Under the pieces are notes generated by a model, which was not told where the DNA came from, ran no database searches, and saw only the letters and a list, made by a program, of their open reading frames with translations. A stretch of DNA of 64,000 nucleotides from a bacterium. GTDB lineage: Bacteria > JAAXHH01. The position numbers and the translations under genes were made by a program. Below are positions 25,150 to 40,024 of the stretch, one piece after another; the first letter of the stretch is position 1, and every line of letters begins with the position of its first letter. Where the stretch lies: the NCBI GenBank assembly GCA_965242885.1, contig CBDETH010000008.1, positions 150,286 through 214,285 of the forward strand, written 5' to 3'.

Positions 25150-26034
25150 ATGACCGACAAATTCTGCCCGCTGAACCTGGCTCCGGAGGAACTTATCGAG
25201 TACACGCCGGACTGGGACGGCGAACGCTTCCCGGACGGACGGCCCAGGGTGCCGGACGGGATCATCGAGCGGATGAAGAACGTCTCCATCACCCAGGCCT
25301 GGGGCGTGATGCGCGGCGCGGGCTACGAACACCAGTACGAGGGCGGCTGGGCGCAGACCCATCCCGGCAAGACGCTCGTGGGCCGGGCGCTGACGGCCAT
25401 GTACATGCCCCGGCGGCCGGCCATGCGCGCGGTGATGGAGGCGAAGGGCGCCGCCGCCGGCTGCATCGGCGACCAGATCTCCTGGCCCATCGACATGCTC
25501 GTTCCCGGGGACGTCTACGTAGCGGACACCTACGGCAAGGTGGACGAGGGGCCCATCATCGGCGACAATCTGGCCACCGCCATCTACGCCAATTCCGGCA
25601 ACGGCGTGGTCTTCGACGGGTCCGTGCGGGACCTGGAAGGCATCGAGGAACTGGAGGACTTCGCCTGCTTCGTCCGGGGCTGGCACCCCTCCTACGCCTC
25701 ACCCACGATCATGCTCCTGGGCGTCAACACCGCGGTGCGCATCGGCCAGGCCACGGTCATGCCCGGCGACGTCGTCCTGGGCAAGCGCGAAGGCGTCGTC
25801 TTCATCCCGCCCCACCTCGCGGAGAACGTGGTTAAGACCTCCGAACTCGTCCAGCTGAGGGATATGTTCGGCAAGCAGCGGCTGCGGGAGGGGAAATACA
25901 CACCCGGCCAGATCGACGACCGGTGGACGGACGGGATGGAGGCGGATTTCTCGGAATGGCTCGAGGACCACATGGACGAACTGCCGGTCCCGAAGTCGGC
26001 CATCCAGGACCTGCTGAAGGAACGGACGTGGTGA
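25150..26034 (+). CDS. RraA-family protein (RNase E inhibitor / HMG-CHA aldolase-like fold)
   Basis: RraA-like core (…GDNLATAIYANSGNGVVFDGSVRD…); start chosen at MTDKFCPL. Confidence 0.65.
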   Translation: MTDKFCPLNLAPEELIEYTPDWDGERFPDGRPRVPDGIIERMKNVSITQAWGVMRGAGYEHQYEGGWAQTHPGKTLVGRALTAMYMPRRPAMRAVMEAKGAAAGCIGDQISWPIDMLVPGDVYVADTYGKVDEGPIIGDNLATAIYANSGNGVVFDGSVRDLEGIEELEDFACFVRGWHPSYASPTIMLLGVNTAVRIGQATVMPGDVVLGKREGVVFIPPHLAENVVKTSELVQLRDMFGKQRLREGKYTPGQIDDRWTDGMEADFSEWLEDHMDELPVPKSAIQDLLKERTW

Positions 26035-26045
26035 GGGAGGTTTCG

Positions 26046-26252
26046 TCAGGCACTCACATTCGGCCTGCGCTCAAAAGCGAATTCCATGATATTCGCGTTT
26101 TCTTCCGCGTGTTCGATGGTCATGGAGACGAGATTGCCCTCTTCATCAAGGTCCATGTAGACGTCCTCGGACATCTCCTGCGTCTCTACCGCGGCACTAT
26201 CCAGAAATACGATGTGCAGCGTGTCCGTATCTTCATAGTACTTGATCTTCAT
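26046..26252 (-). CDS. DUF2283-family small protein (putative antitoxin-like)
   Basis: MKIKYYEDTDTLHIVF… is the DUF2283 signature; first gene of the low-GC island; no DUF4258 partner is present. Confidence 0.55.
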   Translation of the reverse strand: MKIKYYEDTDTLHIVFLDSAAVETQEMSEDVYMDLDEEGNLVSMTIEHAEENANIMEFAFERRPNVSA

Positions 26253-26387
26253 CTTGAACTCTTCGTGGAAAGTCTCGATCGAAGAAGGCGTTGTGAACCG
26301 ATTCTCCATCCTCCACATGTCGTAAAGAAAGTTGTACCTAATTGTTGCTTGAATGCACACGGCCTAATAGCGCCATTTGAAACTTGG

Positions 26388-29300
26388 TTAAGCACCAGCC
26401 TCAATTCGAGAATCGGATTCATTACTGGCAATTCCAATGTAACGATCATAAAACACCGTCAACTTGTCCAGAATGCGCTCTTTGGTTTTTGCTCGTTCGC
26501 CACTGGGTGAAAATCGGCCCCCGGGGGGCAGGATAGTGGAAAGGGCTGTACCGGTAGTTGGAACGCCCCCGTCCCGAAACGCATTGCGCATAAATCGAAA
26601 CGTTGCATCCCTATCGACGTTCTCGCTCAATACAATCTGCTCAAGTTCCTCCTTTTTGCGTTCCTCGACGAAATGCTTCCAGTCCCTATCCACGTCGGAA
26701 TGGTCCCCAAGCGAAGCAATAAATACCTGAATAAGGTCTTTCTTGTTCCGCAGTTCAACGCTTGAATCCATGGCCTTTTCTATATCGATTAAAACCTCTT
26801 TGTCCTGTTGATGGCTCTCGTGGAACTTTCTCACGAGTTCCAGAATGTAATCGATATTTATCTCGATCTGCTTGATCAACTCCATCTCGAAGACCAGGTC
26901 ATCGTTGATGTTCGCGCTTTCACCATCCCCGCCCGATCGGAAATCATCGTACAGATCTATATACATGCTGTGGTAGTCCTGTTGATCGCGCGGTGAGAGG
27001 ATTTCATTGCCCTTGAACTCATCAAATGCCGTCAGGATATTTCGGACCCGAAGAATGGTACCGTAAAGCTTGATGAAATTCCGCTGGGACTGCTCGCCAA
27101 TGATATAAGCGCCGACAGGATACTTCTCCAGCAACTCCTCCACCAGGTCGGCGTAACCGCGCACAGGGTGGTCTCCATCCTGATAACCTTCGTAGTAATC
27201 GCGGTAGGACTTCAGCAGCACAAGCCCACCCGCTTCCGGGTTGCCGAAGAGCGCGATGGACTCGTTCGTGGCCTTCTCCAAGTTTCGAAAGCAGACGATA
27301 TTTCCGAATGTCTTTACACTGTTGAGAATGCGGTTGGTGCGCGAAAACGCCTGGAGCAATCCGTGCAGGCGCAGGTTTCTGTCTACCCAAAGCGTATTCA
27401 CCGTCGTTGCGTCGAATCCCGTCAAGAACATGTTGACCACGAGGAGGACGTCGATTTCGCGGTTTTTCACCCTCTCGCTCACGTCCTTGTAGTAATTCTG
27501 AAACTTGTCGGACGACGTATCGTACGATGTTGCGAACAGGGAGTTGTAGTCCTCGATCGCGCCGTCGAGGAAGTGACGTGAACTCGCGTCAAGCCCGCTC
27601 GTATCGTCCGGGTTCTCATCCACCATCCCGTCCGGGTCTTCATCGTTCACACCGAAGCTGTAGATCAGCGCCACCTTCAGTTTTTTGTCACTTGGCGCAT
27701 CAGATAGTTGCCGTTTGAATTCCGCGTAATAGCGTCTGGCCATTTCGATAGAGGCTACGGCGAATATCGAATTGAATCCGGCGAGACGTCGATCCTTCAG
27801 CTTGTAGAAACTATTCCGCTTGGTCTTCCGGTCGAAGTGCTCGCAAATGTAGCGCACGATATTCGCAACCCGTTCCGGAGAGGCCAGCGCCGCCTTGCAA
27901 TCTATATCGGCCACCTGCTCGTCCTCGATATCCTCCGCCTCTTTGATCGTCGAGACATAATCTACCTTAAACGGCAATACGTTCTTGTCCCCGATGGCGT
28001 CCGCGATTGTGTAGGTGTGCGCCTTCTCGCCGAATGCCTGTTCGGTGGTTTTCAGGTCGGGCCGTCCCCCGGAAGCGGCGTTGGCTGCAAAGATCGGCGT
28101 GCCGGTGAATCCAAAAAGATGATACTTCGAGAATGACTTTGTTATCGCGGCGTGCATTTCGCCGAACTGCGAGCGATGGCACTCGTCGAATATGAGGACC
28201 ACATGTCTTTTGAAAACCTCATGTTCGCGGTTCAGCCTTACAAACCGGTCCAGTTTCTGAATCGTCGTGATGATGATACGGGCGTCCGGGTCTTCAAGCT
28301 GCCTTTGCAGGATCGCCGTGCTGGTATTGCTGTTTGCGGCGCCCTTCTCGAATTTGTCGTACTCCTTCATGGTCTGGTAGTCCAGATCCTTCCGATCCAC
28401 TACGAACAGGACCTTGTCGACATGTTCCATCCTGCTTGCCAGCTGCGCCGTCTTGAAACTCGTCAGGGTCTTTCCGGAGCCTGTGGTATGCCAAATGAAT
28501 CCGCCGGCCTCGACCGTGCCCAGTATCCGGTGGTTGGTACTGATGACGATTCGATTCAGTATGCGTTCCGTCGCGACGATCTGGTAAGGTCTCATGACTA
28601 GCAACAACCGGTCGGTGGTGAATACGCAGTACCGGGTCAGGACGTTAAGCAGCGTGTGCTTCGCGAAGAAGGTCCGAGAGAAATTTACCAGGTCCCTGAT
28701 GGGCTTATTGGCCGCATCGGCCCACCAACTAGTGAATTCGAAGCTGTTGCTCGATCGCTTGACGTACTTCGCCGAGCCCTGTTGGGTTTCCTTAACGTGC
28801 TGCATACGGGTCGTATTGCTGTAGTACTTCGTGTTCGTGCCATTCGAAATGACAAAAAGCTGGATGTATTCGAAAAGCCCCGCCTCTGCCCAGAAACTCT
28901 CACGCTGATAGCGATTGATCTGATTGAATGCCTCCCGTATCGGTACGCCGCGGCGCTTGAGTTCGACGTGGACCAGCGGCAGCCCGTTGACCAGCACGGT
29001 AACGTCGTATCGGTTCGCATGCAGCCCGCTGTCGGTTGTGTACTGCCTGATGACCTGCAGTTTGTTGTCGTGGATGTTGTTCTTGCTTAGTAGATAAATG
29101 TTTTTCTTCGATCCGTCGTCGCGGGTTAGTATCTTGACGTAATCTTCCTGAATCGTAGCGGTCTTTTCTTCGATACCGTCGTTCCGGTTGGCCAATTCGC
29201 TGTCGAGAAAAAGGTTCCATTCACTGTCGCTGAAACTGTAGTCATTGAGTTCCTCCAGTTGGCTTCGAAGATTCTCTATCAGGCTGTCTTCGTGCGTAAT

Positions 29301-29465
29301 CTGGATGTACTCGTACGCTTGAGATTTGAGTTGTGCAACAAAGGCACACTCAAGATCTGCCTCGCTCTGGTAACTTTCGGCGCGGTAATTCACCGGCGCG
29401 TATTCCGCCACCACAGTGCTTTGCGCCTGCTCGGCGATGACCTTATAGACAGGGTTTTCGCTCAT
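26388..29465 (-). CDS. hsdR: Type I restriction enzyme R subunit (HsdR)
   Basis: SF2 helicase motifs (…GSGKT…, DECHRS, …) and the HsdR N- and C-terminal regions; start chosen at MSENPVYKV (ATG 29465) rather than the track's upstream ATG. Confidence 0.9.
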   Translation of the reverse strand: MSENPVYKVIAEQAQSTVVAEYAPVNYRAESYQSEADLECAFVAQLKSQAYEYIQITHEDSLIENLRSQLEELNDYSFSDSEWNLFLDSELANRNDGIEEKTATIQEDYVKILTRDDGSKKNIYLLSKNNIHDNKLQVIRQYTTDSGLHANRYDVTVLVNGLPLVHVELKRRGVPIREAFNQINRYQRESFWAEAGLFEYIQLFVISNGTNTKYYSNTTRMQHVKETQQGSAKYVKRSSNSFEFTSWWADAANKPIRDLVNFSRTFFAKHTLLNVLTRYCVFTTDRLLLVMRPYQIVATERILNRIVISTNHRILGTVEAGGFIWHTTGSGKTLTSFKTAQLASRMEHVDKVLFVVDRKDLDYQTMKEYDKFEKGAANSNTSTAILQRQLEDPDARIIITTIQKLDRFVRLNREHEVFKRHVVLIFDECHRSQFGEMHAAITKSFSKYHLFGFTGTPIFAANAASGGRPDLKTTEQAFGEKAHTYTIADAIGDKNVLPFKVDYVSTIKEAEDIEDEQVADIDCKAALASPERVANIVRYICEHFDRKTKRNSFYKLKDRRLAGFNSIFAVASIEMARRYYAEFKRQLSDAPSDKKLKVALIYSFGVNDEDPDGMVDENPDDTSGLDASSRHFLDGAIEDYNSLFATSYDTSSDKFQNYYKDVSERVKNREIDVLLVVNMFLTGFDATTVNTLWVDRNLRLHGLLQAFSRTNRILNSVKTFGNIVCFRNLEKATNESIALFGNPEAGGLVLLKSYRDYYEGYQDGDHPVRGYADLVEELLEKYPVGAYIIGEQSQRNFIKLYGTILRVRNILTAFDEFKGNEILSPRDQQDYHSMYIDLYDDFRSGGDGESANINDDLVFEMELIKQIEINIDYILELVRKFHESHQQDKEVLIDIEKAMDSSVELRNKKDLIQVFIASLGDHSDVDRDWKHFVEERKKEELEQIVLSENVDRDATFRFMRNAFRDGGVPTTGTALSTILPPGGRFSPSGERAKTKERILDKLTVFYDRYIGIASNESDSRIEAGA

Positions 29466-29663
29466 ACTCGACTCCCACATGTACCAAATACGATGGCACC
29501 GTTTTCGTTGGTGGTATGGCACGCAATGAACTGGGGTTCCGCAGGCGCACAAAGTACCTTGCATCTGGATAACTGTCAAGGCGGCATACCGCCCCGCCCA
29601 TTACAGAAACTGGTCCCCAGGGAACGGGCTTGGGTCGACCGATTTGGAGAACCTGTTTTCGCT

Positions 29664-29692
29664 TTGACTAACGCCATTTCAAGATTTAGAAT
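29664..29692 (+). promoter_or_regulatory. Near-consensus sigma70 promoter (TTGACT-N17-TAGAAT) for the embedded ATPase gene
   Basis: -35 at 29664-29669 and -10 at 29687-29692, read directly, ~60 nt upstream of ATG 29753. Confidence 0.5.
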
Positions 29693-29752
29693 GCCATACA
29701 GCGTCTTTTACTGGTCGGTGAAGCGATTTCGAACGCATAAGGAATATGGATC

Positions 29753-31480
29753 TTGTTGACCGAATTAACCGTACGGAATTTCAAGCCTTTTGATGACGTC
29801 CGTATAGAACTCGCCAACCCCGTCGTGTTCATTGGCCCGAACAACTCCGGGAAGACGTCGGCAATGCAAGCACTGGCGTTGTGGAACACCGGCCTGAAGC
29901 GATGGAACGAGCGCCGTTCCGGATCACCCGCGCCTGAGCGCCGACCCGGGGTAACGGTCAACCGCCGTGACCTGATCGCCATGCCAGTTCCTTCAGCCAA
30001 TCTGCTCTGGAGGGCGCTACGTACGCGAAACGTCCGGCAAACAACCGGCGGGCCGAGGACATCCAATATCCGCATCGACGTAATCGTCGTCGGCGTCGGG
30101 AAACAGGGCGAATGGAAGTGTGGACTGGAGTTCGATTATGCCAACGAGGAGTCGATCTACTGCCGACCCTTACGAAACGATGGCGACGCCGACTCCCGCA
30201 TGGCGGTTCCCCCCGAGGCGGGCGCCGTGGAGGTCGCCTTCCTTCCCCCCATGTCAGGGCTTTCAGCCACCGAAACGCGGTTGGATCCAGGCGCGGTCGA
30301 TGTGCGCGTCGGGGAGGGCCGAACCGCGGAGGTACTGCGCAATCTTTGCTTTCAAGTCTCCGAAGGGGATCCCCACCGTTGGGAGGCCATCATATCGCGT
30401 ATAGCACAGTTGTTCGGCGCTGAAATCGATCCTCCGAAATACGTGGTCGAACGGGGAGAGGTCACCATGACCTACCGGGAGGAAGGGGTACAGCTCGACC
30501 TGTCCTCAAGCGGCCGGGGCATGCAGCAGACGCTGCTTCTCCTCGCGTACATGCACGCGAATCCCGGTGCGGTCGTCCTGCTCGACGAGCCCGACGCCCA
30601 TCTCGAAATCCTGCGGCAGCGCCAGATCTACCGAATGATCTCCGAAGAGGCGGAGGGAAATGGTTGTCAGATCATCGCGGCCAGTCATTCCGAGGTCTTG
30701 CTGAACGAAGCGGCGGGCAGGGATACGGTTGTTGCCTTCATCGGGAATCCACACCGGATCGACGACCGAGGCAGCCAGACGTTGAAGGCGCTCCGCGAAA
30801 TCGGCTTTGAGCAGTACACCCAGGCTGGTCAAACCGGCTGGGTGTTGTATCTGGAAGGGTCGACGGACCTCGCGATCCTGCAGGCCTTTGCTAAACGGCT
30901 GAATCATCGTGAAGCGATGCACGCGCTTGAGCGTCCCTTCGTCCACTATATCGGAAACCAATTGGCGAAGGCGGAAAGCAATTTTCACGGACTCAGGGAA
31001 GCGCTGCCCACGCTGCGAGGCATAGCAATCCTGGACGAGATCACGCGGGACCAACCCGCCGACGGGCTGGCGTGCATGGCGTGGGAGCGGCGGGAAATCG
31101 AAAATTACCTCTGCACTCAAGCGACGCTTGAAGCCTACGCCGCTTCAAGCGATAGGGCGGCAGCAGTCGGACCTCTCTTCGAATACGCAGAGGCAAAAAA
31201 ACGACTGGACGCAATGCGGGCCGCCATCCGGGAAGTATCCGCGGCAATGATCACTCTGGGTCGGGGATCTCCCTGGGACGCAGACGCCAAGGTGAGCGAT
31301 GAATTCCTTGCCCCACTCTTCGCCGACTATTTCGAACGGCTGCAACTCCCCAATCTGATGAACAAGAGTAGTTACCACAAGTTGGTGGACTTTGTTCCCG
31401 ATCAGGAGATTGACCCTGGGATCAGACGCGTCCTGGACGCCATCGCGACAACGGATGCGGAATCCAGCGGAAAGGCCTGA
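29753..31480 (+). CDS. ABC-type ATPase (AAA_21/AAA_15-like) with a C-terminal TOPRIM/DUF4435-like domain (OLD-family / PARIS-like / PrrC-like position)
   Basis: Walker A (GPNNSGKTS), Walker B (VVLLDEPDAHLE), H-loop (IIAASHSE); the C-terminal region carries VLYLEGSTDLAIL and ILDEITRD (TOPRIM-like E…DxD); lies between hsdR and hsdS on the opposite strand. Confidence 0.6.
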   Translation: MLTELTVRNFKPFDDVRIELANPVVFIGPNNSGKTSAMQALALWNTGLKRWNERRSGSPAPERRPGVTVNRRDLIAMPVPSANLLWRALRTRNVRQTTGGPRTSNIRIDVIVVGVGKQGEWKCGLEFDYANEESIYCRPLRNDGDADSRMAVPPEAGAVEVAFLPPMSGLSATETRLDPGAVDVRVGEGRTAEVLRNLCFQVSEGDPHRWEAIISRIAQLFGAEIDPPKYVVERGEVTMTYREEGVQLDLSSSGRGMQQTLLLLAYMHANPGAVVLLDEPDAHLEILRQRQIYRMISEEAEGNGCQIIAASHSEVLLNEAAGRDTVVAFIGNPHRIDDRGSQTLKALREIGFEQYTQAGQTGWVLYLEGSTDLAILQAFAKRLNHREAMHALERPFVHYIGNQLAKAESNFHGLREALPTLRGIAILDEITRDQPADGLACMAWERREIENYLCTQATLEAYAASSDRAAAVGPLFEYAEAKKRLDAMRAAIREVSAAMITLGRGSPWDADAKVSDEFLAPLFADYFERLQLPNLMNKSSYHKLVDFVPDQEIDPGIRRVLDAIATTDAESSGKA

Positions 31481-31588
31481 GGCCTAGCAAAGACCGGGAG
31501 TCCGAAATCAGCCTTTACGCCACCCATCGGACCTAGCGAAGCCCAGTAGTAAAATCCAGACTCGTCAGACCGGAACGCAGGCAGAGAA

Positions 31589-32263
31589 TCACGCCGGGTT
31601 AACCGACGGTTCCCCCGATTCCGGCCTGGGTTCGAAAGTTAGCAGCCTGTCCCGGTAATACTCGTATTGTTTCCGACGCGCGGCCAGTTCGGCCGGCAAC
31701 CCGATCGTAATATCGTTCACGAGCATATCGAAACGATCCAGGATCGAGACGATACGCTTCTGTTCGGTTAGGGGCGGGACGGGGATTTTGATCTTTTTAA
31801 TCGCGCGAGGGTGAACCCGATAGACTTTCGTGCCAGTTGCAAATCTCCTGAACTCGCTCAAGTATGAGTTGGACATCAGAATGTAATTGAGAAAACCCGG
31901 CGCTATCAGGTCTTTCCTGATGATTTTCAGTACGGTAGTTTCAGTCCCGGCAAGAAACTTTTGTTGGGTAGTATTCTCGATCAACACGGCCTTTCCGATG
32001 TCGTCCTTCGTTTCCGAAGTCAGATTATAAACGATGTCGCCCGTATCCAGTAGTTGATCGTTTCGAAAACGTTCATTTGCCGAAACTTTAGCTATATGAT
32101 CGAACTCTGAATCGAGATTGACCACCCTGTGATATAGTTTGTAAACATCTCCATAATGAATGTACGGTATTGTATTTATTGCAGAAATCCGGTTGCGTGG
32201 AATACTTGCGCCTTTGCTGAACGTTGCAATATCACCTATCTTCACCCCCCCCCCCCCCCCCAT
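31589..32263 (-). CDS. hsdS: HsdS C-terminal half (TRD2 plus distal conserved region); begins at an ATG fused to the poly-G tract
   Basis: …IPVPPLTEQKRIVSILD…RRKQYEYYRDRLL… is the HsdS conserved region; MGGGGG is encoded by the homopolymer. Confidence 0.75.
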   Translation of the reverse strand: MGGGGGVKIGDIATFSKGASIPRNRISAINTIPYIHYGDVYKLYHRVVNLDSEFDHIAKVSANERFRNDQLLDTGDIVYNLTSETKDDIGKAVLIENTTQQKFLAGTETTVLKIIRKDLIAPGFLNYILMSNSYLSEFRRFATGTKVYRVHPRAIKKIKIPVPPLTEQKRIVSILDRFDMLVNDITIGLPAELAARRKQYEYYRDRLLTFEPRPESGEPSVNPA

Positions 32264-32918
32264 CTAATTCATTGATATTAAACAACTTATCTCTGTAATA
32301 CTCATACTGCTTTTTTCTTGCTTCCAGCTCTGCTTCCAGCTCTGCTTCCAGCTCTTTAAAAGTGTCGAGGGTTTTCACGATCTCTGCTTGGATAGGCAAG
32401 GGGGGAATGGGGATTTCGAGACGTGACCACTTGCTCTTTGTAAGTCCAAATCGCGTAATCCCCGTCGCTGCTTTTTGAATTTGCTTTTGTAGTTCGTCAG
32501 ATTCAAATAAATATGCAATGTAACAAGAAGTAGTATAGTTGGATTTATGGGGTCGAAGCCTCATTACATGATAACTATACACGGCGTTGTGGATGTTTTC
32601 GACAGCGACGGCAGATATGCCTATATCTTCCTTAGTTTCAGAAGTTGGTGTAATAAAAATATCACCTCGTTTAATGTCGCAGCTTTCGAATTGTGCGTCT
32701 GTCGCAGTCACCTTCATTTTCAATATGTCCTTAGAAATGAACTGGTTTCTCACGACATCCATGTAATTTAAAAGTAAAACTTGTTTCTGCCCTTCCTTGG
32801 TCTTTTTATCTGCACCGACCTTTCCGAATCCGCATAATCTGCCCAACGCCCGAAACTCCACCCCATCCGGACACAATTCGGATATCAGTTTCTCGATACG
32901 ACCCACGTGCGTTTTCAT
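32232..32918 (-). CDS. hsdS: HsdS N-terminal half (TRD1 plus central conserved region), truncated by a frameshift at the poly-G tract
   Basis: …LEIPIPPLPIQAEIVKTLD…KKQYEYYRDKLF…; the start ATG overlaps the hsdM stop (ATGA). Confidence 0.8.
   Translation of the reverse strand: MKTHVGRIEKLISELCPDGVEFRALGRLCGFGKVGADKKTKEGQKQVLLLNYMDVVRNQFISKDILKMKVTATDAQFESCDIKRGDIFITPTSETKEDIGISAVAVENIHNAVYSYHVMRLRPHKSNYTTSCYIAYLFESDELQKQIQKAATGITRFGLTKSKWSRLEIPIPPLPIQAEIVKTLDTFKELEAELEAELEARKKQYEYYRDKLFNINELDGGGGGGEDR
32245..32261 (-). repeat. Homopolymeric tract of 17 G (minus strand; 17 C on plus) at the junction of the two hsdS halves: a candidate phase-variation switch
   Basis: Counted directly; a 1-nt contraction to 16 G fuses the halves in frame (…LDGGGGGVKIGD…). 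Confidence 0.85.
32318..32356 (-). repeat. 12-bp x3 tandem repeat encoding (ELEA)3 in the HsdS central conserved region
   Basis: tgcttccagctc x3 read directly; analogous to the TAEL copy-number variation that changes spacer length in EcoR124I/II. Confidence 0.8.
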
Positions 32919-34480
32919 CTCGTTCCTTCTATTTCTAATACGATTTCGTCGATGGCCGTGCGGAGTTCCTGCTGGTGCGCAACGATCCGGTCGATCTCCT
33001 CGTTGAGCGCCTTGATATCGATAGTCTCCCGGGTGTCCTCGGGCTCCACGTAACTCGAAACCGAGATATTGTAGTCGTTCTGAGCGATAGCCTTGTTGTC
33101 GATCAGGGCGGCGAAGTGTTCGATGTCGACGCGATCAGCGTACGCCTTGAGGATCTTCGCGCGGTGCTCATCGGCCAGCTTGTTCTTGTTGCCTGAACGG
33201 ACGAATTCGGAGGATGCCTCGATGAAGAGCGTCTTGTTGTCCGCCTTGCTTTTTTTCAGCACGATGATGCAGGTGGCGATGCTGGTTCCGAAGAAGAGAT
33301 CGGGGGGTAGCTGGATCACTGTGTCGATGTAGTTGTTTTCAATGAGATAGCGACGAATCTTCATTTCGGCTCCGCCGCGATACAGTACTCCTGGAAACTC
33401 GACTATGGCAGCTGTACCGCTGGTTGAAAGCCAGGAAAGCATGTGCATGACGAAAGCGAGATCGGCCTTGCTTTTGGGCGCCAAAACGCCTGCTGGAGAA
33501 AACCGCGGGTCGTTGATGAGGATCGGATTCGCGTCGCCGTCCCATTTGATCGAATAGGGCGGATTGGAGACTATGGCGTCAAACGGTTCATCGTCCCAAT
33601 GCGCCGGGTCGGTGAGTGTGTCTCCGAGGGCGATATCGAACCGCTCGTAATTGATGTCATGCAGGAACATGTTGATGCGGCAGAGGTTAAAGGTCGTGAG
33701 GTTTACCTCCTGCCCGAAGAAACCTTGGCGAACCTTCTCCTTCCCTAGCACCTTGGAGAACTTCAGCAGCAACGAACCCGAACCACAAGCCGGATCGTAT
33801 ACCTTGTTTACATCGTGCCGGCCGACGGTCGTGATTTCTGCGAGCAATTCGCTGACCTCCTGCGGGGTGAAAAATTCGCCGCCGGACTTGCCCGCGTTCG
33901 ATGCATACATCGTCATCAGGTATTCGTAGGCATCTCCGAAAGCGTCTATGGTAGAGTCGGCGTAATCCTGGAAACTCAGTCCGGCAATGGCGTCGAGCAG
34001 TCTAACCAGTTTACGGTTCCGCTGTTCCACCGTGGCGCCGAGTTTGGGCGAGTTTACGTCTAGGTCATCGAAGAGGCCCTTCAGGTCGTCCTCGCTCGCA
34101 GTGCCCTTTGCCGAGTTCTCGATATTTCTAAAGACCCTGGCGAGCGTTTCGTTCAGGTCCTGGTCTTGTCGCGCGGAAGCCGCCACACTGGCAAACAACT
34201 CGGAGGGCAGGATGTAAAATCCTTTCTCCTTTACCGTTTCGTCACGCCCCAACTCCGCATTTTCGTCCGACAGTTCTGCGTAATCGAAATCGGAGATGCC
34301 CCCTCGACGTTCGTCGTCGTTGATATAGGCGGTGAGGTTCTCGCTGATAAATCGGTAGAACAACATCCCCAGCACGTATTGCTTGAAGTCCCAACCGTCC
34401 ACGCTGCCCCGTAGATCATTGGCAATCTGCCAGATCGTGCGGTGCAGTTCTTCCCGATCTTGATGATTAGCGTGTGTCAT
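32915..34480 (-). CDS. hsdM: Type I restriction-modification methyltransferase subunit (HsdM)
   Basis: HsdM N-terminal domain plus N6-adenine MTase motifs (…DPACGSGS…, NPPY). Confidence 0.9.
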   Translation of the reverse strand: MTHANHQDREELHRTIWQIANDLRGSVDGWDFKQYVLGMLFYRFISENLTAYINDDERRGGISDFDYAELSDENAELGRDETVKEKGFYILPSELFASVAASARQDQDLNETLARVFRNIENSAKGTASEDDLKGLFDDLDVNSPKLGATVEQRNRKLVRLLDAIAGLSFQDYADSTIDAFGDAYEYLMTMYASNAGKSGGEFFTPQEVSELLAEITTVGRHDVNKVYDPACGSGSLLLKFSKVLGKEKVRQGFFGQEVNLTTFNLCRINMFLHDINYERFDIALGDTLTDPAHWDDEPFDAIVSNPPYSIKWDGDANPILINDPRFSPAGVLAPKSKADLAFVMHMLSWLSTSGTAAIVEFPGVLYRGGAEMKIRRYLIENNYIDTVIQLPPDLFFGTSIATCIIVLKKSKADNKTLFIEASSEFVRSGNKNKLADEHRAKILKAYADRVDIEHFAALIDNKAIAQNDYNISVSSYVEPEDTRETIDIKALNEEIDRIVAHQQELRTAIDEIVLEIEGTR

Positions 34481-34789
34481 TCAGCTTCCAATCCTATCTC
34501 GATGCTTGGTCTTTGGTGAGATCTCTTTGGGGTGTATATGACCGTCGCTGTCTGCCCACGCAGTCTTCACGAATACGAACAGTGGATTGTAGTCCTGTCG
34601 TGCCTGTTTCGTATCGAACAAACACCGGATCTAAGTACCGGCAACTCTGTCTGGATTTACAAGGGGTACAATATAGAGGTATCCAAACTTCTCGACAATC
34701 AAAAGACCTATGGACGGATGTGAAGCGGATCACCACCAGTTCGTATATTCGATTCACATTACATCGATTTCCATCGCTCACGTGGCCTA

Positions 34790-36043
34790 TCACCCGCCGA
34801 GCGCCCATCCCGTGGGTATCCCCATCACGCCATCACCCAGGTCTCGGATGTGAGGATCATTGGATAGCACCAGCGCCTGGAGGACGGGTTTGTCCAGGAT
34901 CTCATCCAAACGACGCAAATGGCGCGCATCCCTTTGCGAGACCTTTTCTTTGAATTTGATTTCGATAGGCACATAGCCGCTTTCGGTCTCGATCAGCAGA
35001 TCAACTTTCCGACCGTCGACTGTTCGCAGATGATGAAAATCAACGGGCAACCTCAGATTTCGCGCTTGCTTAAAGATCTCCACGATGATGGCACCTTCGA
35101 ATTCGGTACCCGTTGGCCGGGACCTGCGGTTGAGCAGTGCGCGTTGGACGCCTGGATCGAGGAAGTGTATTTTCGCTGCCTTGGAAAGGCGTTTGTTTCG
35201 GTTTCTGAACCACGGCTGTAACTGGATGATCTGGTAACTGATTTCGAGGTAGGAAACAAAACGAATGATCGTCCTGTGCGTCACGCTGGCGAGACGGGCC
35301 AGTTCGCTGATATTCAGCAAACCGCCAGCCAAACCGCCCAATGCCCGCAACATGCGTACATAGGGCACCAGGTCCCGAAGATTGGCCAGATCTCGAAGGT
35401 CTCTTTGCAGATACGTTCGCAGGTAGTCCTGTAGCCACCCGTACCGGTCCTCCCGGGACAGCGTGATATCGGAAACTACCGGCATGCCCCCGAATTCCAG
35501 GTAGTGATCGAGATGATCAACCGCTCTGGCGTACCTGTCGCATTGCTGGGGTATCCCTGATACGAGGATTTCAAGATCCCCCGATACAAGATACCGGACC
35601 AGGCGGGATTCCACGACCGGATCGTGCCAGGAATCGGTCATCATTTCCGGTATCGTGAGTGGATACAGTTCCATAATCGTGACGCGTCCAGCCAGGCTCT
35701 CCCGTATCTGCTCCATCAACAGGATCTGGCTGGATCCAAGCAGAATGGCACGGGCGTCGGTATACCGGTCGTACACCGCCTTGATGGATTCGACAATCGA
35801 TGGCGCTTTCTGAATTTCGTCCAGGATGACCCTGGGATAACGTTGGTACCACAGTGCCGCTGAAAGCGCAGTATAGTCCGGGCGCACGATCGGGTCTTCG
35901 AGCGAGACGAAACCGTATTCAGGAAACCCGGCCTGTACCAGGGTGGTCTTGCCTGTTTGACGGGCACCTGTCAATGCGATCAGTCGTCCCAGGCGGGTAT
36001 CTGCCTTCTGTTTCATCAAGGACAGCACAGTCCGGTTTTTCAT
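34790..36043 (-). CDS. AAA+ ATPase with a DUF4143 domain
   Basis: Walker A (GARQTGKTT) and the C-terminal DUF4143-like region; a common defence-island passenger. Confidence 0.7.
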   Translation of the reverse strand: MKNRTVLSLMKQKADTRLGRLIALTGARQTGKTTLVQAGFPEYGFVSLEDPIVRPDYTALSAALWYQRYPRVILDEIQKAPSIVESIKAVYDRYTDARAILLGSSQILLMEQIRESLAGRVTIMELYPLTIPEMMTDSWHDPVVESRLVRYLVSGDLEILVSGIPQQCDRYARAVDHLDHYLEFGGMPVVSDITLSREDRYGWLQDYLRTYLQRDLRDLANLRDLVPYVRMLRALGGLAGGLLNISELARLASVTHRTIIRFVSYLEISYQIIQLQPWFRNRNKRLSKAAKIHFLDPGVQRALLNRRSRPTGTEFEGAIIVEIFKQARNLRLPVDFHHLRTVDGRKVDLLIETESGYVPIEIKFKEKVSQRDARHLRRLDEILDKPVLQALVLSNDPHIRDLGDGVMGIPTGWALGG

Positions 36044-36329
36044 GTCACAAACTCATTTTGGCGTATTATTATGCTCTTTATGATAAATTATACGCTGTTA
36101 ATTCGATAAAGCAACCGAAATTTACGTTGAAAACACTCGTGTGGCGATACGAAGCCACAGGAGGGAGGGGAATTCAAGCGTGGGAAATGGTGGTCTGAAC
36201 CGGGGGATGCGTGCCTGGGTGTTCTGTGGGGGGAACGGCACCACGTTTTCATGGAAAAGACGAGATCGATTCCTGGCGGAATCAGTAATCAGTTATCCAT
36301 CGTTGTCGACGACGCGACCGTCTGCGTCA

Positions 36330-37919
36330 TTAGTCAGGCTGTCCCGCCGGAACTGGAGTCAGAGGGGGTTCAGTCACGGTCAACATCCCCGTACCCGATA
36401 CTCCGTCCATTGCGGCTTTGATCGTGGCTTCTCCAGCCGAAACACCCATAGCGAGACCAGAGGTGTCAATCGTCGCAACAGATTCATCCGAACTTGTCCA
36501 CGTAAACGCCACATCCGGGACCGACATCCCGTCAGCCGCCTTGGCCACTGCTTCGAGCTGCCGGGCTTGGCCTTCCTCGACTGTCGTCTCCGATGGAGTC
36601 ACTTCGATGATCGCTACCTCCGGCTTGCCGTCCGTCAGTTTCTGGATTGTATTGGGCACACTGTCAACCGAAGTGACCTCATCGATCTGCTTTGTGACAC
36701 GGACGTTTAACTCCGGGAACTTGTTAACCGTCGGCGCGATGCGGGAATCCCACGAGCCGACGCCTTTGTTGTACCGTTCTACCGCCTGCCGAAGCGACTT
36801 GCCCACGTCGATATAGTGCCCGGCAAAAACCGTCAGCCGTTCGTACATCTCCTTGCCCAGGTCGCTGATCTGCCGGGCGGTCTCCGCGACGCGGATCTGC
36901 TGCCAAGACATCTCCACGGCCTTGAGAAGCGCCAGCAGGGCGGGCGGCGTGACGATCACCACGTTCTTCTCGAGGGCCCGGTCCGTTAGCCCGGGTTCCC
37001 GCTCGACGGCGGGGATGAAAGCGAATTCGGGCAAGACCATCACCACCATGTCCGGCGTAGAGGCCAGGACGCTCCAGTACTCTTTCCTGGCCAGGGAGTC
37101 CACGTGACTTTTTACCTGGCTGACATGGCGATCGAACGCGGCGGACCTGGATTCGTCGTCGTCCGTCTCGAAGGCTTCCATAAGCGCCGTCAGTGACACC
37201 TTGGAATCGAGAATGACCGTCCGGTCCTGCGGCAGATGGACGATCACATCGGTTCGGATCCGTTCGCCTTCGCTGTCGAAGCTGTCCTGCACCGTGAAAT
37301 CGATATCCTTACTAAGGCCCGAAAGCTCCAGCACGCGCTCGAGCTGCGTTTCGCCCCAGCGTCCGCGCACGTCGGGCCGCTTGAGCGCGTTGGAAAGCGT
37401 CTGGGCCTCGCTGGCAAGTTCCTTGTTGGTCTGCATGAGGTTCAGCATCTGGGTGCGGAATTCACCGGCGTTTTCCGCCCGCGCCTTGTCCAGCGACACG
37501 ATTTTCTCCGATAGGGGCTTGACCAGTTTCTCGACGGCTTCCTGGCGTGCTTTTAACGATTCCTCGGCGTTTGCCTTGAACGATTCCTGCTGCGACTTCA
37601 GGACTTCCGACGACAGGGCCTTGAAGGTGTCCTTAAACCGCTTCTCGACCTCGTCCCGCTCGCCGAGGCGTTCCTGCGCATTGGTGAGTTTCTGAAGCAG
37701 TTCGGCCCGTTCAACTTCCAGCTTCCGGACTTCCTCCAGTGACTTCCCCGCTTCGGCCAGTTGCTCGCGCACGACGCCCAGTTTGGTCTCCATGGCCGCC
37801 TTCTCGCCGCTGAGCGTATAGATCCGGCTGCTGTTTCTTAAACTCCAGACCAGCACGCCTGCCGCCAGCGCCAGGCATCCCAGGAGCGCGATGAGCAATA
37901 TGATCGTCAGTGTGTCCAT
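36330..37919 (-). CDS. RmuC-family protein (membrane-anchored, coiled-coil, PD-(D/E)xK-like) with a C-terminal Big_2 Ig-like domain
   Basis: N-terminal TM, long coiled coil, RmuC core (…RPDVRGRWGETQLERVLELSG…), then …EVTPSETTVEEGQARQLEAVAKAADG…ATIKA… (Big_2-like). Confidence 0.6.
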   Translation of the reverse strand: MDTLTIILLIALLGCLALAAGVLVWSLRNSSRIYTLSGEKAAMETKLGVVREQLAEAGKSLEEVRKLEVERAELLQKLTNAQERLGERDEVEKRFKDTFKALSSEVLKSQQESFKANAEESLKARQEAVEKLVKPLSEKIVSLDKARAENAGEFRTQMLNLMQTNKELASEAQTLSNALKRPDVRGRWGETQLERVLELSGLSKDIDFTVQDSFDSEGERIRTDVIVHLPQDRTVILDSKVSLTALMEAFETDDDESRSAAFDRHVSQVKSHVDSLARKEYWSVLASTPDMVVMVLPEFAFIPAVEREPGLTDRALEKNVVIVTPPALLALLKAVEMSWQQIRVAETARQISDLGKEMYERLTVFAGHYIDVGKSLRQAVERYNKGVGSWDSRIAPTVNKFPELNVRVTKQIDEVTSVDSVPNTIQKLTDGKPEVAIIEVTPSETTVEEGQARQLEAVAKAADGMSVPDVAFTWTSSDESVATIDTSGLAMGVSAGEATIKAAMDGVSGTGMLTVTEPPLTPVPAGQPD

Positions 37920-37929
37920 GTGAAGATTT

Positions 37930-38544
37930 CTATCCTTTTATCACTTCAAGTAAGATGATTCTTGTTTCCTTGCAGAACTGTTCCAATAGTAGAGGAGAAA
38001 AACGACTCGACAACATCATTTTACCTGGTGTAATCGAATTGACTTTAGCTCCATAATGCCTTCGAACCACCTCATCAAATCTTTTTCGTGTTCTTGCATT
38101 TCCGTGGGCGATGTGATTTCTTACTTTCCTTAAATCGGATATAAAACTCCCATATATAGTTATAGTATTGATAAAGTGTTCATCTGCGGGAAACAGGTTT
38201 TCCAGGTTTTTTTTGATATCCGACGCTCGCCCCCATCTGAGCTGAATTCTGCTGTTGGAACTTCTCTCATATTCCAACATCGCTACACGAGCTCTTTTAA
38301 AGCTTCTTGTAGGACGGTGTCTGAGTAGCTGCGGAGTCGACCCGTCGCAGTAATTTGTACCGCATATCATCCGACAAGCTGAATCCTCAAATATGACCTC
38401 CAAAAGAGAGAATAGACGTACAACTATCATTTCGGCCAAGTAAATACGAGGAAGACTATCTAATGAATTTAAACGGGTTACAAGAGTTAATGCAGTTTCA
38501 GTTGTGTGACGGATTCTGTCAGCCTGTGGATGTAGAGTTGACAT
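37930..38544 (-). CDS. HEPN-like protein (Rx4H motif RNHIAH)
   Basis: 204-aa, all-alpha prediction by eye, with a C-terminal-half KVRNHIAHGN motif matching the HEPN Rx4-6H consensus; 5 nt downstream of the DUF262 gene. Confidence 0.4.
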   Translation of the reverse strand: MSTLHPQADRIRHTTETALTLVTRLNSLDSLPRIYLAEMIVVRLFSLLEVIFEDSACRMICGTNYCDGSTPQLLRHRPTRSFKRARVAMLEYERSSNSRIQLRWGRASDIKKNLENLFPADEHFINTITIYGSFISDLRKVRNHIAHGNARTRKRFDEVVRRHYGAKVNSITPGKMMLSSRFSPLLLEQFCKETRIILLEVIKG

Positions 38545-38549
38545 TGTAA

Positions 38550-39548
38550 CTACAAAAACCTGCTGATATAATTGGAACGAACTTTCCGACTAGCAATCCG
38601 TTGAGTACTAGCCCTACAAGCATCTGCAAAATCAACATCCACTTTAGGGCGATCACTTAGTGGCTTATCTGAGTTAAACCTTTCGTCGATCTCAAATAGA
38701 GCTTCTTCTAGTTTCCTGCCCTTAGCACCCGAGTTCGAGTCCAGCGCAAGTACCAAAGAGAAAAACACAGGTTTTCTTGAGAAAATCGTATCGCGGATTG
38801 ACGAAGGTGATAACGAGACAATCCTATCAAACACCGAGTCCAGCCTCTTTTGGATTTCTGGAGCTTCGGCAAAGGACTCGTCATTGTCGGCATAGAGTTT
38901 CTTTAACCTGGAATTTGAGAAATCTGATAACCCCTCAATCATATTCAGAATGATGTCAGAGATAAACTCAACTTCTTGCATACGTGCGATGTTGTTCGCT
39001 GTGAATACTCTTAAATCTCTCCACAGAGATAACCGAGATGCTGCTTCACGTAAGCAAAACTGTTTAAACTCCCCACTAAAGTCTGCGTTACGCTTTTCTT
39101 GCAGGTTAAGAGTCTTAGCAACAGAATTCAAACGTCCAAAAACCTCAATAACATCTGCATCCGAAGCTCCTAGAAGCCACCCACCAGATAGTTTTGTTTC
39201 ACGAAATACTCTTTTTTGATTTGTTGAGAGCATTTCATAGGTCACCTTGCCTTGATGTACAGGATGATATGCAGCGTACTCACCGCTGATATATTCCAGA
39301 ATTGCTCGGATACGTTGCTGACCATCGACTACTTCTCTAAGGCTCCTATCCTGTTCTAGATCAACAATGTGCCTAAAGTAAAGAGTGGGAACTGGTTTCT
39401 GTTCAAACAGCGTATTAAGAAGGTACGACTTCTGGGGTATCGTCCACACAGAACGCCGTTGGTACCATGGATTTAACTTTAGCTCCTTGTGTTTCTCCCA
39501 GTTAACAAGATCTTGTACAATCAAAGGTTCATAATCTACACGATCCAT
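38550..39548 (-). CDS. DUF262 (ParB/Srx-like, DGQQR motif) protein
   Basis: …REVVDGQQRIRAILEY… is the DUF262/GmrS-like signature. Confidence 0.7.
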   Translation of the reverse strand: MDRVDYEPLIVQDLVNWEKHKELKLNPWYQRRSVWTIPQKSYLLNTLFEQKPVPTLYFRHIVDLEQDRSLREVVDGQQRIRAILEYISGEYAAYHPVHQGKVTYEMLSTNQKRVFRETKLSGGWLLGASDADVIEVFGRLNSVAKTLNLQEKRNADFSGEFKQFCLREAASRLSLWRDLRVFTANNIARMQEVEFISDIILNMIEGLSDFSNSRLKKLYADNDESFAEAPEIQKRLDSVFDRIVSLSPSSIRDTIFSRKPVFFSLVLALDSNSGAKGRKLEEALFEIDERFNSDKPLSDRPKVDVDFADACRASTQRIASRKVRSNYISRFL

Positions 39549-40024
39549 GTTCTTCTCCTCCAGTTTTGTCTTTGATACAGTACTACACGATGTTCACATC
39601 GTACCAAAGGTATTTAGTTGGTTTTAGTAGAGACAATGGAACTCAGATTTGCCCTGTCAATAAACTAATACTCATATAATCTTACACATCAACTTGACAC
39701 GGGTTTCCAAATACTTGTGATTTCACCGTTGTTCGGATTTACGATCGGTATTAAGTCTAAGAATTACCAGGTATCTCATTACGGAACATACTTGAATCAA
39801 TCCTCCTATAATGCCAAACACGAGTTGATAATTCGATCAACTCGCTATTCTCATTTAAAATCTAAAATACATAAATGTCTTATAAGCATGACATCTCAAT
39901 TGAAAGGTATTTGCGTAGTTCCTTTGGGATGATACCCCTGTGTACCCACTACCGACAATCGAAAATGCGGTACAAACTGAGTTTCCTAGCGTTTAAACGA
40001 CAATTGCTAATTTTAACTCTACGA

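What the first reader, a model, noticed from the sequence alone, without database searches (positions are those of the whole stretch)
31589..32918. Type I R-M specificity gene split by a 17-nt poly-G tract: candidate phase-variable hsdS
hsdS is read as two halves: TRD1 plus the central region (32232..32918), and TRD2 plus the distal region (31589..32263). They are separated only by a run of 17 G on the coding strand (plus-strand C17 at 32245-32261). With 17 G the N-terminal half terminates 4 codons after the tract (…LDGGGGGGEDR*). The second half can start only at an ATG whose G is the first G of the tract, giving MGGGGGVKIGD. By direct re-translation, 16 G would fuse both halves in frame (…LDGGGGGVKIGD…) into a normal ~445-aa two-TRD HsdS. 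Homopolymer slippage of this kind is the established mechanism of phase-variable Type I systems (NgoAV-type truncated HsdS; phasevarions). It would toggle between a full-length asymmetric specificity and a half-HsdS that can dimerise to recognise a palindromic site. hsdM and hsdS are also translationally coupled by an ATGA overlap at 32915-32918
Basis: partly seen in the sequence, partly recalled or inferred. Interest (0 to 1): 0.8.

Follow-up and report, generated by a model that had tools for sequence, protein, structure and literature searches.

The report
Slippery poly-G switch in hsdS
A restriction-modification specificity gene in an uncultured Gemmatimonadota genome is split by a run of 17 G, and sister genomes carry 10 or 14 G at the same spot, so this is a well-supported but already familiar kind of mutational switch that changes which DNA sequence the system recognises.

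Summary
A C17 run (G17 on the coding strand) lies at 32245-32261, and the next longest G/C run in 64 kb is 6. It splits an EcoR124-type (Type IC) hsdS into two Methylase_S ORFs. With 16 or 19 G the gene reads as one 442/443-aa HsdS that aligns end to end with ordinary two-TRD HsdS proteins.

- A 12.7-kb sister contig is 99.7% identical. Its only two indels are 3 G in this tract (G14 against G17) and one extra copy of a 12-bp repeat in the central conserved region.
- A ~93% identical relative has G10 and one fused 444-aa hsdS.
- Short-read assemblies of related MAGs break exactly at the tract.
- Among 58 related Type IC hsdS genes from many phyla, 11 carry a 7-13 nt G or C run at the same linker. 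Six of those are frameshifted.

This matches the NgoAV paradigm and a published REBASE survey, which found repeats in 7.8% of hsdS genes, always between the TRDs. It is therefore a new member of a known kind.

Untested: within-population switching, activity of the half-HsdS, and the methylation motifs. The exact consensus length of 17 is uncertain.

The parts
32245..32261 (-). Homopolymeric tract, G17 on the coding strand (C17 on +). It is the candidate slipped-strand switch in the linker between the central conserved region and TRD2 of hsdS.
   Evidence: It is the only run longer than 8 nt in the window. The same site carries G14 in L088 and G10 in L089.
32232..32918 (-). hsdS 5' half as read with 17 G: N-terminal conserved region, TRD1, central conserved region and a Gly6-EDR tail (228 aa).
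   Evidence: ORF. (Methylase_S, 50 bits). (alignment to full-length HsdS proteins and to EcoR124II HsdS).
31589..32263 (-). hsdS 3' half: TRD2 plus the distal conserved region. It is 224 aa from the ATG at 32263, or 218 aa from the GTG at 32245.
   Evidence: (Methylase_S, 66 bits). (GTG-start gene call on the sister contig). (the 224-aa form is on record from a 3.84-Mb NCBI contig).
32319..32355 (-). 12-bp tandem repeat GAGCTGGAAGCA, 3.1 copies, encoding (LEAE)3 in the central conserved region. It is a second length-variable repeat, of the EcoR124I/II spacer-repeat type.
   Evidence: TRF, 100% matches. Sister loci L082-L084, L088 and L089 have 4 copies. More distant relatives have 2 to 4 copies.
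32915..34480 (-). hsdM (521 aa), Type IC methyltransferase subunit.
   Evidence: HsdM_N and N6_Mtase. (EcoR124II M, E=2e-185 over the full length).
32915..32918 (-). ATGA overlap of the hsdM stop codon and the hsdS start codon.
   Evidence: Translational coupling is inferred by analogy with EcoKI hsdM/hsdS (abstract of PMC3510504).
26388..29465 (-). hsdR (1025 aa by the gene call on the sister contig; the open frame runs up to 29579). Intact Type IC restriction subunit.
   Evidence: HSDR_N, SWI2_SNF2, T1R_D3-like, EcoR124_C. (EcoR124I HsdR, 843 bits). (1025-aa call in L090).
29756..31480 (+). Intervening ABC-type ATPase gene (AAA_15/AAA_21; matches AriA, AbiL and MADS3-like models) on the opposite strand between hsdS and hsdR. 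It is context, not part of the switch.

Best explanation
This is the specificity gene of an intact EcoR124-family (Type IC) restriction-modification system. The system lies on a low-GC defence island of a Gemmatimonadota genome. hsdS carries a hypermutable poly-G tract in the short linker between the central coiled-coil region and the second target-recognition domain.

Slipped-strand mispairing during replication changes the tract length and so the reading frame.
- Lengths of 3k+1 (10, 13, 16, 19) give one two-TRD HsdS (442 aa at 16 G). This form should direct recognition of an asymmetric bipartite site.
- Other lengths stop translation 0 to 4 codons after the tract, leaving TRD1 plus the full central helix.

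By analogy with NgoAV and with engineered half-HsdS proteins, two such halves should pair, bind two HsdM and recognise a symmetric site built from the TRD1 half-site twice.

A second repeat, 12 bp encoding LEAE, lies in the central helix. It varies between 3 and 4 copies in the same lineage and should change the spacer length.

Shown here: the anatomy, the in-silico frame logic, natural length polymorphism at both repeats in one lineage with both fused and split forms, and recurrence of the tract at the same site in related systems.

Inferred: switching within a clonal population, activity of the half-HsdS, and the change in methylation and restriction specificity.
For: Tract and frame logic.

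Domains and Type IC identity.

Normal architecture of the fused form: it aligns over 96% of its length with 400-440-aa HsdS proteins, and the tract falls in a length-variable linker.

Same-lineage evidence:
- L088 is 99.69% identical over 12,752 nt. Its only two indels are G14 against G17 and 4 against 3 copies of the 12-bp repeat.
- L089 has G10 and one 444-aa hsdS with the same TRD alleles.
- In the same short-read sample, one scaffold ends inside the tract after 6 G. Its partner scaffold begins 8 nt after the tract.

Family-wide evidence:
- 11 of 58 central-region junctions carry a G/C run of 7 nt or more, against 0 of 61 distal junctions (Fisher p=2e-4).
- 11 of the 19 such runs found in 982 kb fall in 0.44% of the sequence.
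- 5 are in frame and 6 are frameshifted, and each frameshifted one is one base away from being in frame.
- The tract-bearing loci are scattered across the HsdM tree.

Precedent:
- In NgoAV, loss of one G fuses hsdS1 and hsdS2 and changes GCAN8TGC to GCAN7STCA. Tracts of 6 to 9 G occur among 92 strains.
- Repeats in hsdS always lie between the TRDs, in 7.8% of REBASE hsdS genes.
- An HsdS truncated just before TRD2 dimerises and is active.
Against: No read-level data were available, so heterogeneity within one population is not shown.

Consensus lengths of 10-17-nt homopolymers are unreliable. The contig names of L088 and L089 suggest 6x and 2x coverage. L089 also has split RmuC and DUF4143 genes, so its G10 could be partly error.

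The two best assemblies (G17 and G14) are in the same split frame. That is also what a stably split gene would show.

No methylome data exist for this genome. Whether the half-HsdS is active is unknown, and so is whether the 3' half is translated.

No other long repeat tract was found in the 64-kb window. The host is therefore not obviously a contingency-locus-rich organism.
Confidence: 0.7

Rival explanations
1. The tract is real, but the stated length is a consensus error. The predominant allele has 16 or 19 G, and hsdS is an ordinary intact gene in most cells. The split is an artefact of homopolymer length calling. The tract would still be hypermutable.
For: Long homopolymers are miscalled by all platforms (general knowledge, also noted). 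Short-read assemblers could not cross this tract at all. One base fewer gives a perfect 442-aa HsdS. An intact version of the same allele exists (L089).
Against: An independent contig (L088) is also in the split frame, at G14. It shows no other indel against the window in 12.7 kb, so both assemblies are otherwise accurate for indels. In the related loci, 6 of 11 tracts are also frameshifted.
Confidence: 0.2
2. The gene is stably split and the specificity does not switch. Both halves are translated, the second from the GTG or ATG at the tract. They assemble into a normal TRD1+TRD2 specificity subunit, so tract changes matter little.
For: Both halves are complete TRD-plus-helix modules. In all 7 split loci the first half stops 0 to 23 nt after the tract, and a start codon lies within about 25 nt of it. 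In L037, and in the 15/18-G states here, this forms a GTGA stop/start overlap. The poly-G could act as a Shine-Dalgarno mimic (inference). G14 and G17 keep the same frame.
Against: Start codons that close are expected by chance in most cases (roughly 0.75 by my own estimate, not a tool result). The ATG has no Shine-Dalgarno sequence, unlike hsdM, the hsdS 5' half and the GmrSD_N gene on the island. In NgoAV the downstream hsdS2 gives no active protein. A fused allele exists in the lineage.
Confidence: 0.12
3. hsdS is a decaying pseudogene. The frameshift is a one-way lesion in a system that is being lost.
For: The gene is frameshifted in the window and in L088. One related record (L082) also carries a TAG within the central region.
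Against: There are no other stops or indels in either half. hsdM and hsdR are intact and full length. The 5' and 3' halves are about 99.6% identical between the window and L088. A run of 14-17 identical bases would not be built or kept by neutral decay. The same site carries tracts in many lineages.
Confidence: 0.05
4. The poly-G is an assembly or sequencing artefact (for example two-colour-chemistry poly-G) and does not exist in the genome.
For: Short-read contigs end in G runs at this position.
Against: The tract is internal, with continuous hsdS coding sequence on both sides. It is present in three separate long contigs, as G17, G14 and G10. Homologous G or C tracts sit at the same codon position in 11 unrelated assemblies.
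Confidence: 0.02

Closest known systems
NgoAV (Neisseria gonorrhoeae FA1090), a Type I system with phase-variable hsdS; I recall it as Type IC
   Same: A poly-G tract at the end of the first half of hsdS splits it into hsdS1 and hsdS2. Loss of one G fuses them. The truncated form (208 of 410 aa) is active and recognises a quasi-palindromic site (GCAN8TGC), while the fused form recognises GCAN7STCA. Tract length differs among strains, from 6 to 9 G. The gene order hsdM-hsdS1-hsdS2 plus hsdR is the same.
   Different: NgoAV has 7 G and this locus has 17 (10 and 14 in sister genomes). The host here is an uncultured Gemmatimonadota, not a human pathogen. Nothing has been tested experimentally here. 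An unrelated ATPase gene lies between hsdS and hsdR. I could not align the NgoAV sequence, because PMC3232900 is not held.
EcoR124I / EcoR124II (archetypal Type IC systems)
   Same: All three subunits are clear homologues. The central conserved region carries a tandem 12-bp (4-aa) repeat, and its copy number varies between close relatives (3 against 4 here). From my own knowledge, 2 against 3 TAEL copies change the EcoR124 spacer from N6 to N7. Several relatives fetched here carry TAEL itself.
   Different: The repeat unit here is LEAE, not TAEL. EcoR124 has no homopolymer: its linker reads SFKEGEVEWKTLGE where this gene has NINELD-Gly(n)-VKIGD.
SSR-containing hsdS genes catalogued from REBASE (Atack et al., FASEB J 2019/2020, PMC7383803)
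   Same: The locus meets their criterion of a mononucleotide tract of at least 9 nt inside the ORF, and their rule that hsdS repeats always lie between the two TRDs. Their examples include G12 in Salmonella and G10-12 in Mannheimia. They report such genes in environmental as well as pathogenic bacteria.
   Different: This locus comes from a metagenome-derived genome that I did not find in their text. The tract is longer than the examples quoted. Here a second repeat in the same gene is also polymorphic.
Engineered half-HsdS enzymes (S. aureus CC398-1 'M 1/2 S', PMC6158711; EcoDXXI and EcoR124I truncations cited there)
   Same: [quoted passage not shown] It forms an active methyltransferase and, with HsdR, an active nuclease with a new palindromic target. 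The 17-G product ends at the same structural point.
   Different: Those are laboratory constructs. The spacing of the new target was not simply predictable, so the palindromic site here cannot be predicted either.
Inverting hsdS shufflons (for example pneumococcal SpnD39III; epigenetic invertons, PMC7672463)
   Same: The outcome is the same: one Type I system with several alternative specificities.
   Different: The mechanism is different. The window holds only one hsdS (two conserved-region motifs). No direct or inverted repeat of 20 nt or more was found in 26000-40000.

Membership tests
Type I R-M, family IC (EcoR124-like) | HsdM, HsdR and the HsdS conserved regions are homologous to those of EcoR124I/II | tested here: met
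   HsdM matches at 2e-185 over the full length. HsdR scores 843 bits and has the EcoR124_C domain. HsdS matches at 8e-32 across the central and distal conserved regions.
Type I R-M, family IC (EcoR124-like) | Tandem 4-aa (12-bp) repeats in the central conserved region of HsdS | tested here: met
   12 bp x 3.1 copies at 32319-32355, encoding LEAE x3. Sister loci have 4 copies.
Type I R-M, family IC (EcoR124-like) | Subunit complementation with other Type IC systems | not testable with these tools
   Needs genetics or biochemistry.
SSR phase-variable hsdS (NgoAV type) | A mononucleotide tract of at least 9 nt, not a multiple-of-3 unit, inside the hsdS reading frame | tested here: met
   G17. The criterion is from PMC7383803.
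SSR phase-variable hsdS (NgoAV type) | The tract lies between the two TRDs, after the central conserved region | tested here: met
   Alignments to full-length HsdS proteins and to EcoR124II HsdS.
SSR phase-variable hsdS (NgoAV type) | A change of one repeat unit switches between full-length and truncated HsdS | tested here: met
   In-silico translation with 15 to 19 G.
SSR phase-variable hsdS (NgoAV type) | Tract length differs among otherwise near-identical copies of the locus | tested here: met
   G17 in the window, G14 in L088 (99.7% identical, where the tract and the 12-bp repeat are the only indels) and G10 in L089 (about 93% identical). Caveat: these are low-coverage consensus sequences.
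SSR phase-variable hsdS (NgoAV type) | Length heterogeneity within a single clonal population (reversible switching) | not testable with these tools
   No reads were available.
SSR phase-variable hsdS (NgoAV type) | The full-length and truncated forms give different methylation specificities | not testable with these tools
   Needs the methylome or heterologous expression.
Phasevarion (phase-variable regulon) | Switching of the methyltransferase changes expression of a set of genes | not testable with these tools
   No expression data. Membership is not claimed.
Recombinational hsdS shufflon / inverton | Extra hsdS copies or half-genes flanked by inverted repeats, usually with a recombinase | tested here: not met
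   There are only two HsdS conserved-region motifs in the window, both in this gene. No repeats of 20 nt or more occur in 26000-40000.

The most novel reading that the evidence does not exclude
One hsdS carries two independent, naturally polymorphic repeats: the poly-G tract (full or half subunit) and the 12-bp LEAE repeat (spacer length). In the split states both halves are translated, with the poly-G serving as a Shine-Dalgarno mimic for the GTG at its end, or through a GTGA stop/start overlap at 15 or 18 G. A single locus would then yield TRD1-TRD1, TRD2-TRD2 and TRD1-TRD2 enzymes, each with two spacer lengths.

The mid-gene G/C tract would be a recurrently evolved device found in about a fifth of this Type IC family across many phyla of mostly uncultured bacteria. 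It would diversify defence at the population level rather than serve host-pathogen phase variation.
Probability: 0.15. Interest if true: 0.5.

Novelty: new member of a known kind. Interest (0 to 1): 0.33.

Why it matters
It extends a mechanism studied almost only in host-adapted pathogens to an uncultured Gemmatimonadota lineage. It does so with natural-population evidence that the two repeats in hsdS are the only length-variable sites in a 12.7-kb defence locus.

In practice, such tracts break short-read assemblies and cause hsdS to be annotated as two partial genes. A methylome motif for this organism may therefore be mixed or palindromic.

The survey here found G or C runs at the same linker in 11 of 58 related hsdS genes from many phyla. 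This suggests the device is common in this Type IC family, in line with the published REBASE survey.

Tried and rejected
- Exact-protein look-ups of both hsdS halves, the GTG-start form, the 575-aa ATPase form, a sulfatase and RmuC found nothing. One search failed because I gave wrong coordinates.
- Two exact-pattern scans of the JGI metagenome collection, with the left and then the right flank of the tract, found nothing. The left-flank 25-mer also carries a SNP relative to the sister contigs.
- The window's own genome is not among the GTDB representatives. The best HsdM match there is 81%.
- I searched the protein database with the fused Akkermansia (L073) HsdS, hoping for near-identical copies with different tract lengths. 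The best hit was 64% identical, so this was a dead end.
- The original NgoAV paper (PMC3232900) is not held, so NgoAV details come from PMC9577141 and PMC7383803.
- The shufflon or inverton reading is rejected.
- The poly-G artefact reading is rejected.
- I looked for conserved start codons for the 3' half in split relatives. They are present in all 7, but that is about what chance would give.
- The simple promoter and terminator scan over 31300-34800 gave fewer or no more sites than in the shuffles.
- I did not confirm the sample origin. A paper search for a sponge source was inconclusive.

Full report
**Observation**

The coding (-) strand between 32261 and 32245 is a run of 17 G. It is the only homopolymer longer than 8 nt in the 64-kb window, and the next longest G/C run is 6. 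About 2e-4 such runs are expected from the window's base composition.

Both pass the Pfam Methylase_S threshold.

Re-translation with different tract lengths gives:
- 17 G: a 228-aa product ending GGGGGGEDR*.
- 16 or 19 G: one protein of 442 or 443 aa.
- 15 or 18 G: a stop (TGA) directly after the tract.

hsdM (32915..34480) overlaps the hsdS start by ATGA.

One detail needs correcting. Besides the ATG at 32263, the last G of the tract forms an in-frame GTG at 32245. That is the start chosen by the gene caller on a sister contig.

**What it is**

HsdM matches EcoR124II HsdM at E=2e-185 over its full length. HsdR matches EcoR124I HsdR at 843 bits and carries the EcoR124_C domain. The conserved regions of HsdS match EcoR124II HsdS at 8e-32. 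This is therefore a Type IC system.

The in-silico fused protein aligns over 96% of its length, at 41-48% identity, with ordinary 400-440-aa HsdS proteins. The tract falls in a short, length-variable linker. That linker lies between the central conserved helix (...LEAELEAELEARKKQYEYYRDKLF) and the first strand of TRD2. EcoR124II reads SFKEGEVEWKTLGE at this point.

The central region also contains a perfect 12-bp tandem repeat, 3.1 copies at 32319-32355, encoding LEAE. It is the counterpart of the TAEL repeat of EcoR124. Several related loci carry TAEL itself.

The system sits in a roughly 14-kb island of about 50% GC in a genome of about 66% GC. hsdS itself is 44% GC. The island also holds other defence-type genes. 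The window has no second hsdS and the island has no long repeats, so a recombinational shufflon is excluded.

**Same-lineage evidence**

The HsdM protein belongs to a 90%-identity cluster. The named members are annotated as Gemmatimonadetes/Gemmatimonadota MAG proteins. The exact protein is on record from a 3.84-Mb contig. Fetching the DNA around the other cluster members gave the homologous locus in several assemblies.

- **L088** is 99.69% identical to window 26924-39663 over 12,752 nt, with 25 substitutions and only two indels. One is three G fewer in the tract (G14). The other is one more copy of the 12-bp repeat (4 against 3).
- **L089** is about 93% identical and has the same TRD alleles. 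It has G10 and one uninterrupted 444-aa hsdS (...NELDGGGVKIGD...).
- **Short-read sample SAMN12347683.** A 92.9-kb scaffold ends inside the tract after six G, and an 84.7-kb scaffold begins 8 nt after the tract. Another MAG's contig stops 21 nt before the tract, and a Logan contig stops inside the 12-bp repeat.

The tract is therefore real. It is long enough to break short-read assemblies. It differs in length between close relatives, and both fused and split forms of this gene exist.

Caveats: the contig names of L088 and L089 suggest 6x and 2x coverage. L089 has other broken genes. Consensus lengths of such homopolymers can be off by a base or more.

**Family-wide evidence**

Eighty loci encoding HsdM relatives (69-81% identity) came from species-representative genomes of many phyla. 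I examined the 75 nt after each HsdS conserved region.

- 11 of 58 central junctions carry a G or C run of 7 to 13 nt, against 0 of 61 distal junctions (Fisher p=2e-4).
- These 11 account for more than half of all 19 such runs in 982 kb, although the junction windows make up only 0.44% of the sequence.
- Five are in frame (8 or 9 nt). Six are frameshifted, each one base away from being in frame.
- The tract-bearing loci are scattered over the HsdM tree.

**Mechanism**

The best reading is slipped-strand mispairing at the tract.
- Lengths of 3k+1 give the two-TRD subunit.
- Lengths of 3k+2 (17, 14) give TRD1 plus the central helix plus a short tail. They also put the upstream ATG in frame with TRD2.
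- Lengths of 3k put a TGA directly after the tract, overlapping the GTG of the TRD2 frame (GTGA).

Published work supports the expected consequences.
- In NgoAV, a truncated HsdS1 of 208 aa is active and recognises GCAN8TGC. Loss of one G fuses the halves and gives GCAN7STCA. Tracts of 6 to 9 G occur among 92 gonococcal genomes (PMC9577141).
- An HsdS truncated directly before TRD2 dimerises and yields an active methyltransferase and nuclease with a palindromic target (PMC6158711).

Change in the copy number of the 12-bp repeat should alter the spacer, as in EcoR124I/II. That last point rests on my own knowledge.

Activity of the half-subunit, translation of the 3' half and the actual motifs are inferred here, not shown.

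**Rivals**

- **Consensus-length error** (the true length is 16 or 19). This is plausible for the exact state, but it does not remove the switch.
- **Stably split gene** whose halves reassemble. This cannot be excluded. G14 and G17 share a frame, and every split relative has a start codon near the tract, though that is about what chance would give.
- **Pseudogene decay.** This fits poorly with intact hsdM and hsdR, with otherwise clean halves, and with a 14-17-nt perfect run.
- **Pure artefact.** This is excluded by three long contigs and by the homologous tracts elsewhere.

**Comparison and novelty**

The locus meets every sequence-level criterion of an SSR phase-variable hsdS. A REBASE-wide survey already reported such repeats in 7.8% of hsdS genes, always between the TRDs, in environmental as well as pathogenic species (PMC7383803). 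It is a new member of a known kind.

Three points are mildly new:
- the length of the tract;
- the host phylum;
- the demonstration that two repeats in one hsdS are the only length-variable sites across a 12.7-kb locus in natural populations.

**Dead ends**

Exact-protein look-ups, two metagenome scans, a search for near-identical copies of a relative's hsdS, and the unavailable original NgoAV paper led nowhere.

Noticed in passing
window 32319-32355; L088 7309-7320; L082-L084 and L089: The 12-bp repeat GAGCTGGAAGCA (LEAE) in the central conserved region has 3 copies in the window and 4 in all sister loci. A Logan contig (L085) ends inside the array.
   Followed up: yes
window 26000-40000: A low-GC island (about 37-61% GC in 500-nt windows, against about 66% in the flanks) holds several defence-type genes. 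They are a GmrSD_N/NsnA-like gene (38550-39548), a HEPN gene (37930-38544), RmuC with a Big_2 domain (36330-37919), a DUF4143 ATPase matching PADLOC PDC-S01 (34790-36043), the Type IC hsdMS, an AriA/AbiL-like ABC ATPase on the opposite strand (29756-31480) and hsdR. The more distant relatives (L082-L087, L089) lack the GmrSD_N and HEPN genes, and those with a full-length RmuC call (L082-L086) have a shorter 475-aa RmuC with no Big_2 hit.
   Followed up: partly
L010, L019, L024, L031, L037, L040, L043, L061, L066, L068, L073 (hsdS central junctions): G or C runs of 7 to 13 nt sit at the same linker of hsdS in 11 of 58 related Type IC loci. The hosts include Patescibacteria, Bacteroidota, Actinomycetota, Lentisphaeria, Akkermansia and Alphaproteobacteria. 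Six of the 11 are frameshifted. The loci are scattered on the HsdM tree.
   Followed up: yes
L082 7563-8237 against L083 7563-8237: The NCBI and ENA records of what appears to be the same 92,869-bp scaffold differ by one base in the hsdS central region. It is TAG (stop, ...KKQ*EYY) in GCA_009842775.1 and TAT (Tyr) in the ENA copy.
   Followed up: no
L001 (ENA ERZ23491905 scaffold_12931), equal to window 32881-35758: A 2,878-bp short-read contig is 100% identical to the window. It ends 36 nt into hsdS on one side and inside the DUF4143 gene on the other. The break at the start of the variable TRD1 may reflect several hsdS alleles sharing one hsdM in that sample, or low coverage.
   Followed up: no
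proteins P0002-P0005, P0012, P0018-P0023 and others: Many of the best HsdS relatives are 600-640 aa long, about one and a half times the normal size. They may be three-TRD 'extended' HsdS proteins like those described in Mannheimia and Fusobacterium.
   Followed up: no
protein P0063 (Campylobacter upsaliensis HsdS), alignment A1 columns 240-260: This relative has ...MLNGGGLKLVSLGE at the same linker, in a genus known for poly-G contingency loci. The DNA was not inspected.
   Followed up: no
window 29580-29752 and 31481-31588: hsdR is separated from hsdMS by a convergently oriented ATPase gene, so hsdR must have its own promoter. In the sister contig, the genes beyond the hsdR stop are a DUF2283 gene and then an RraA-like gene (L090).
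   Followed up: no
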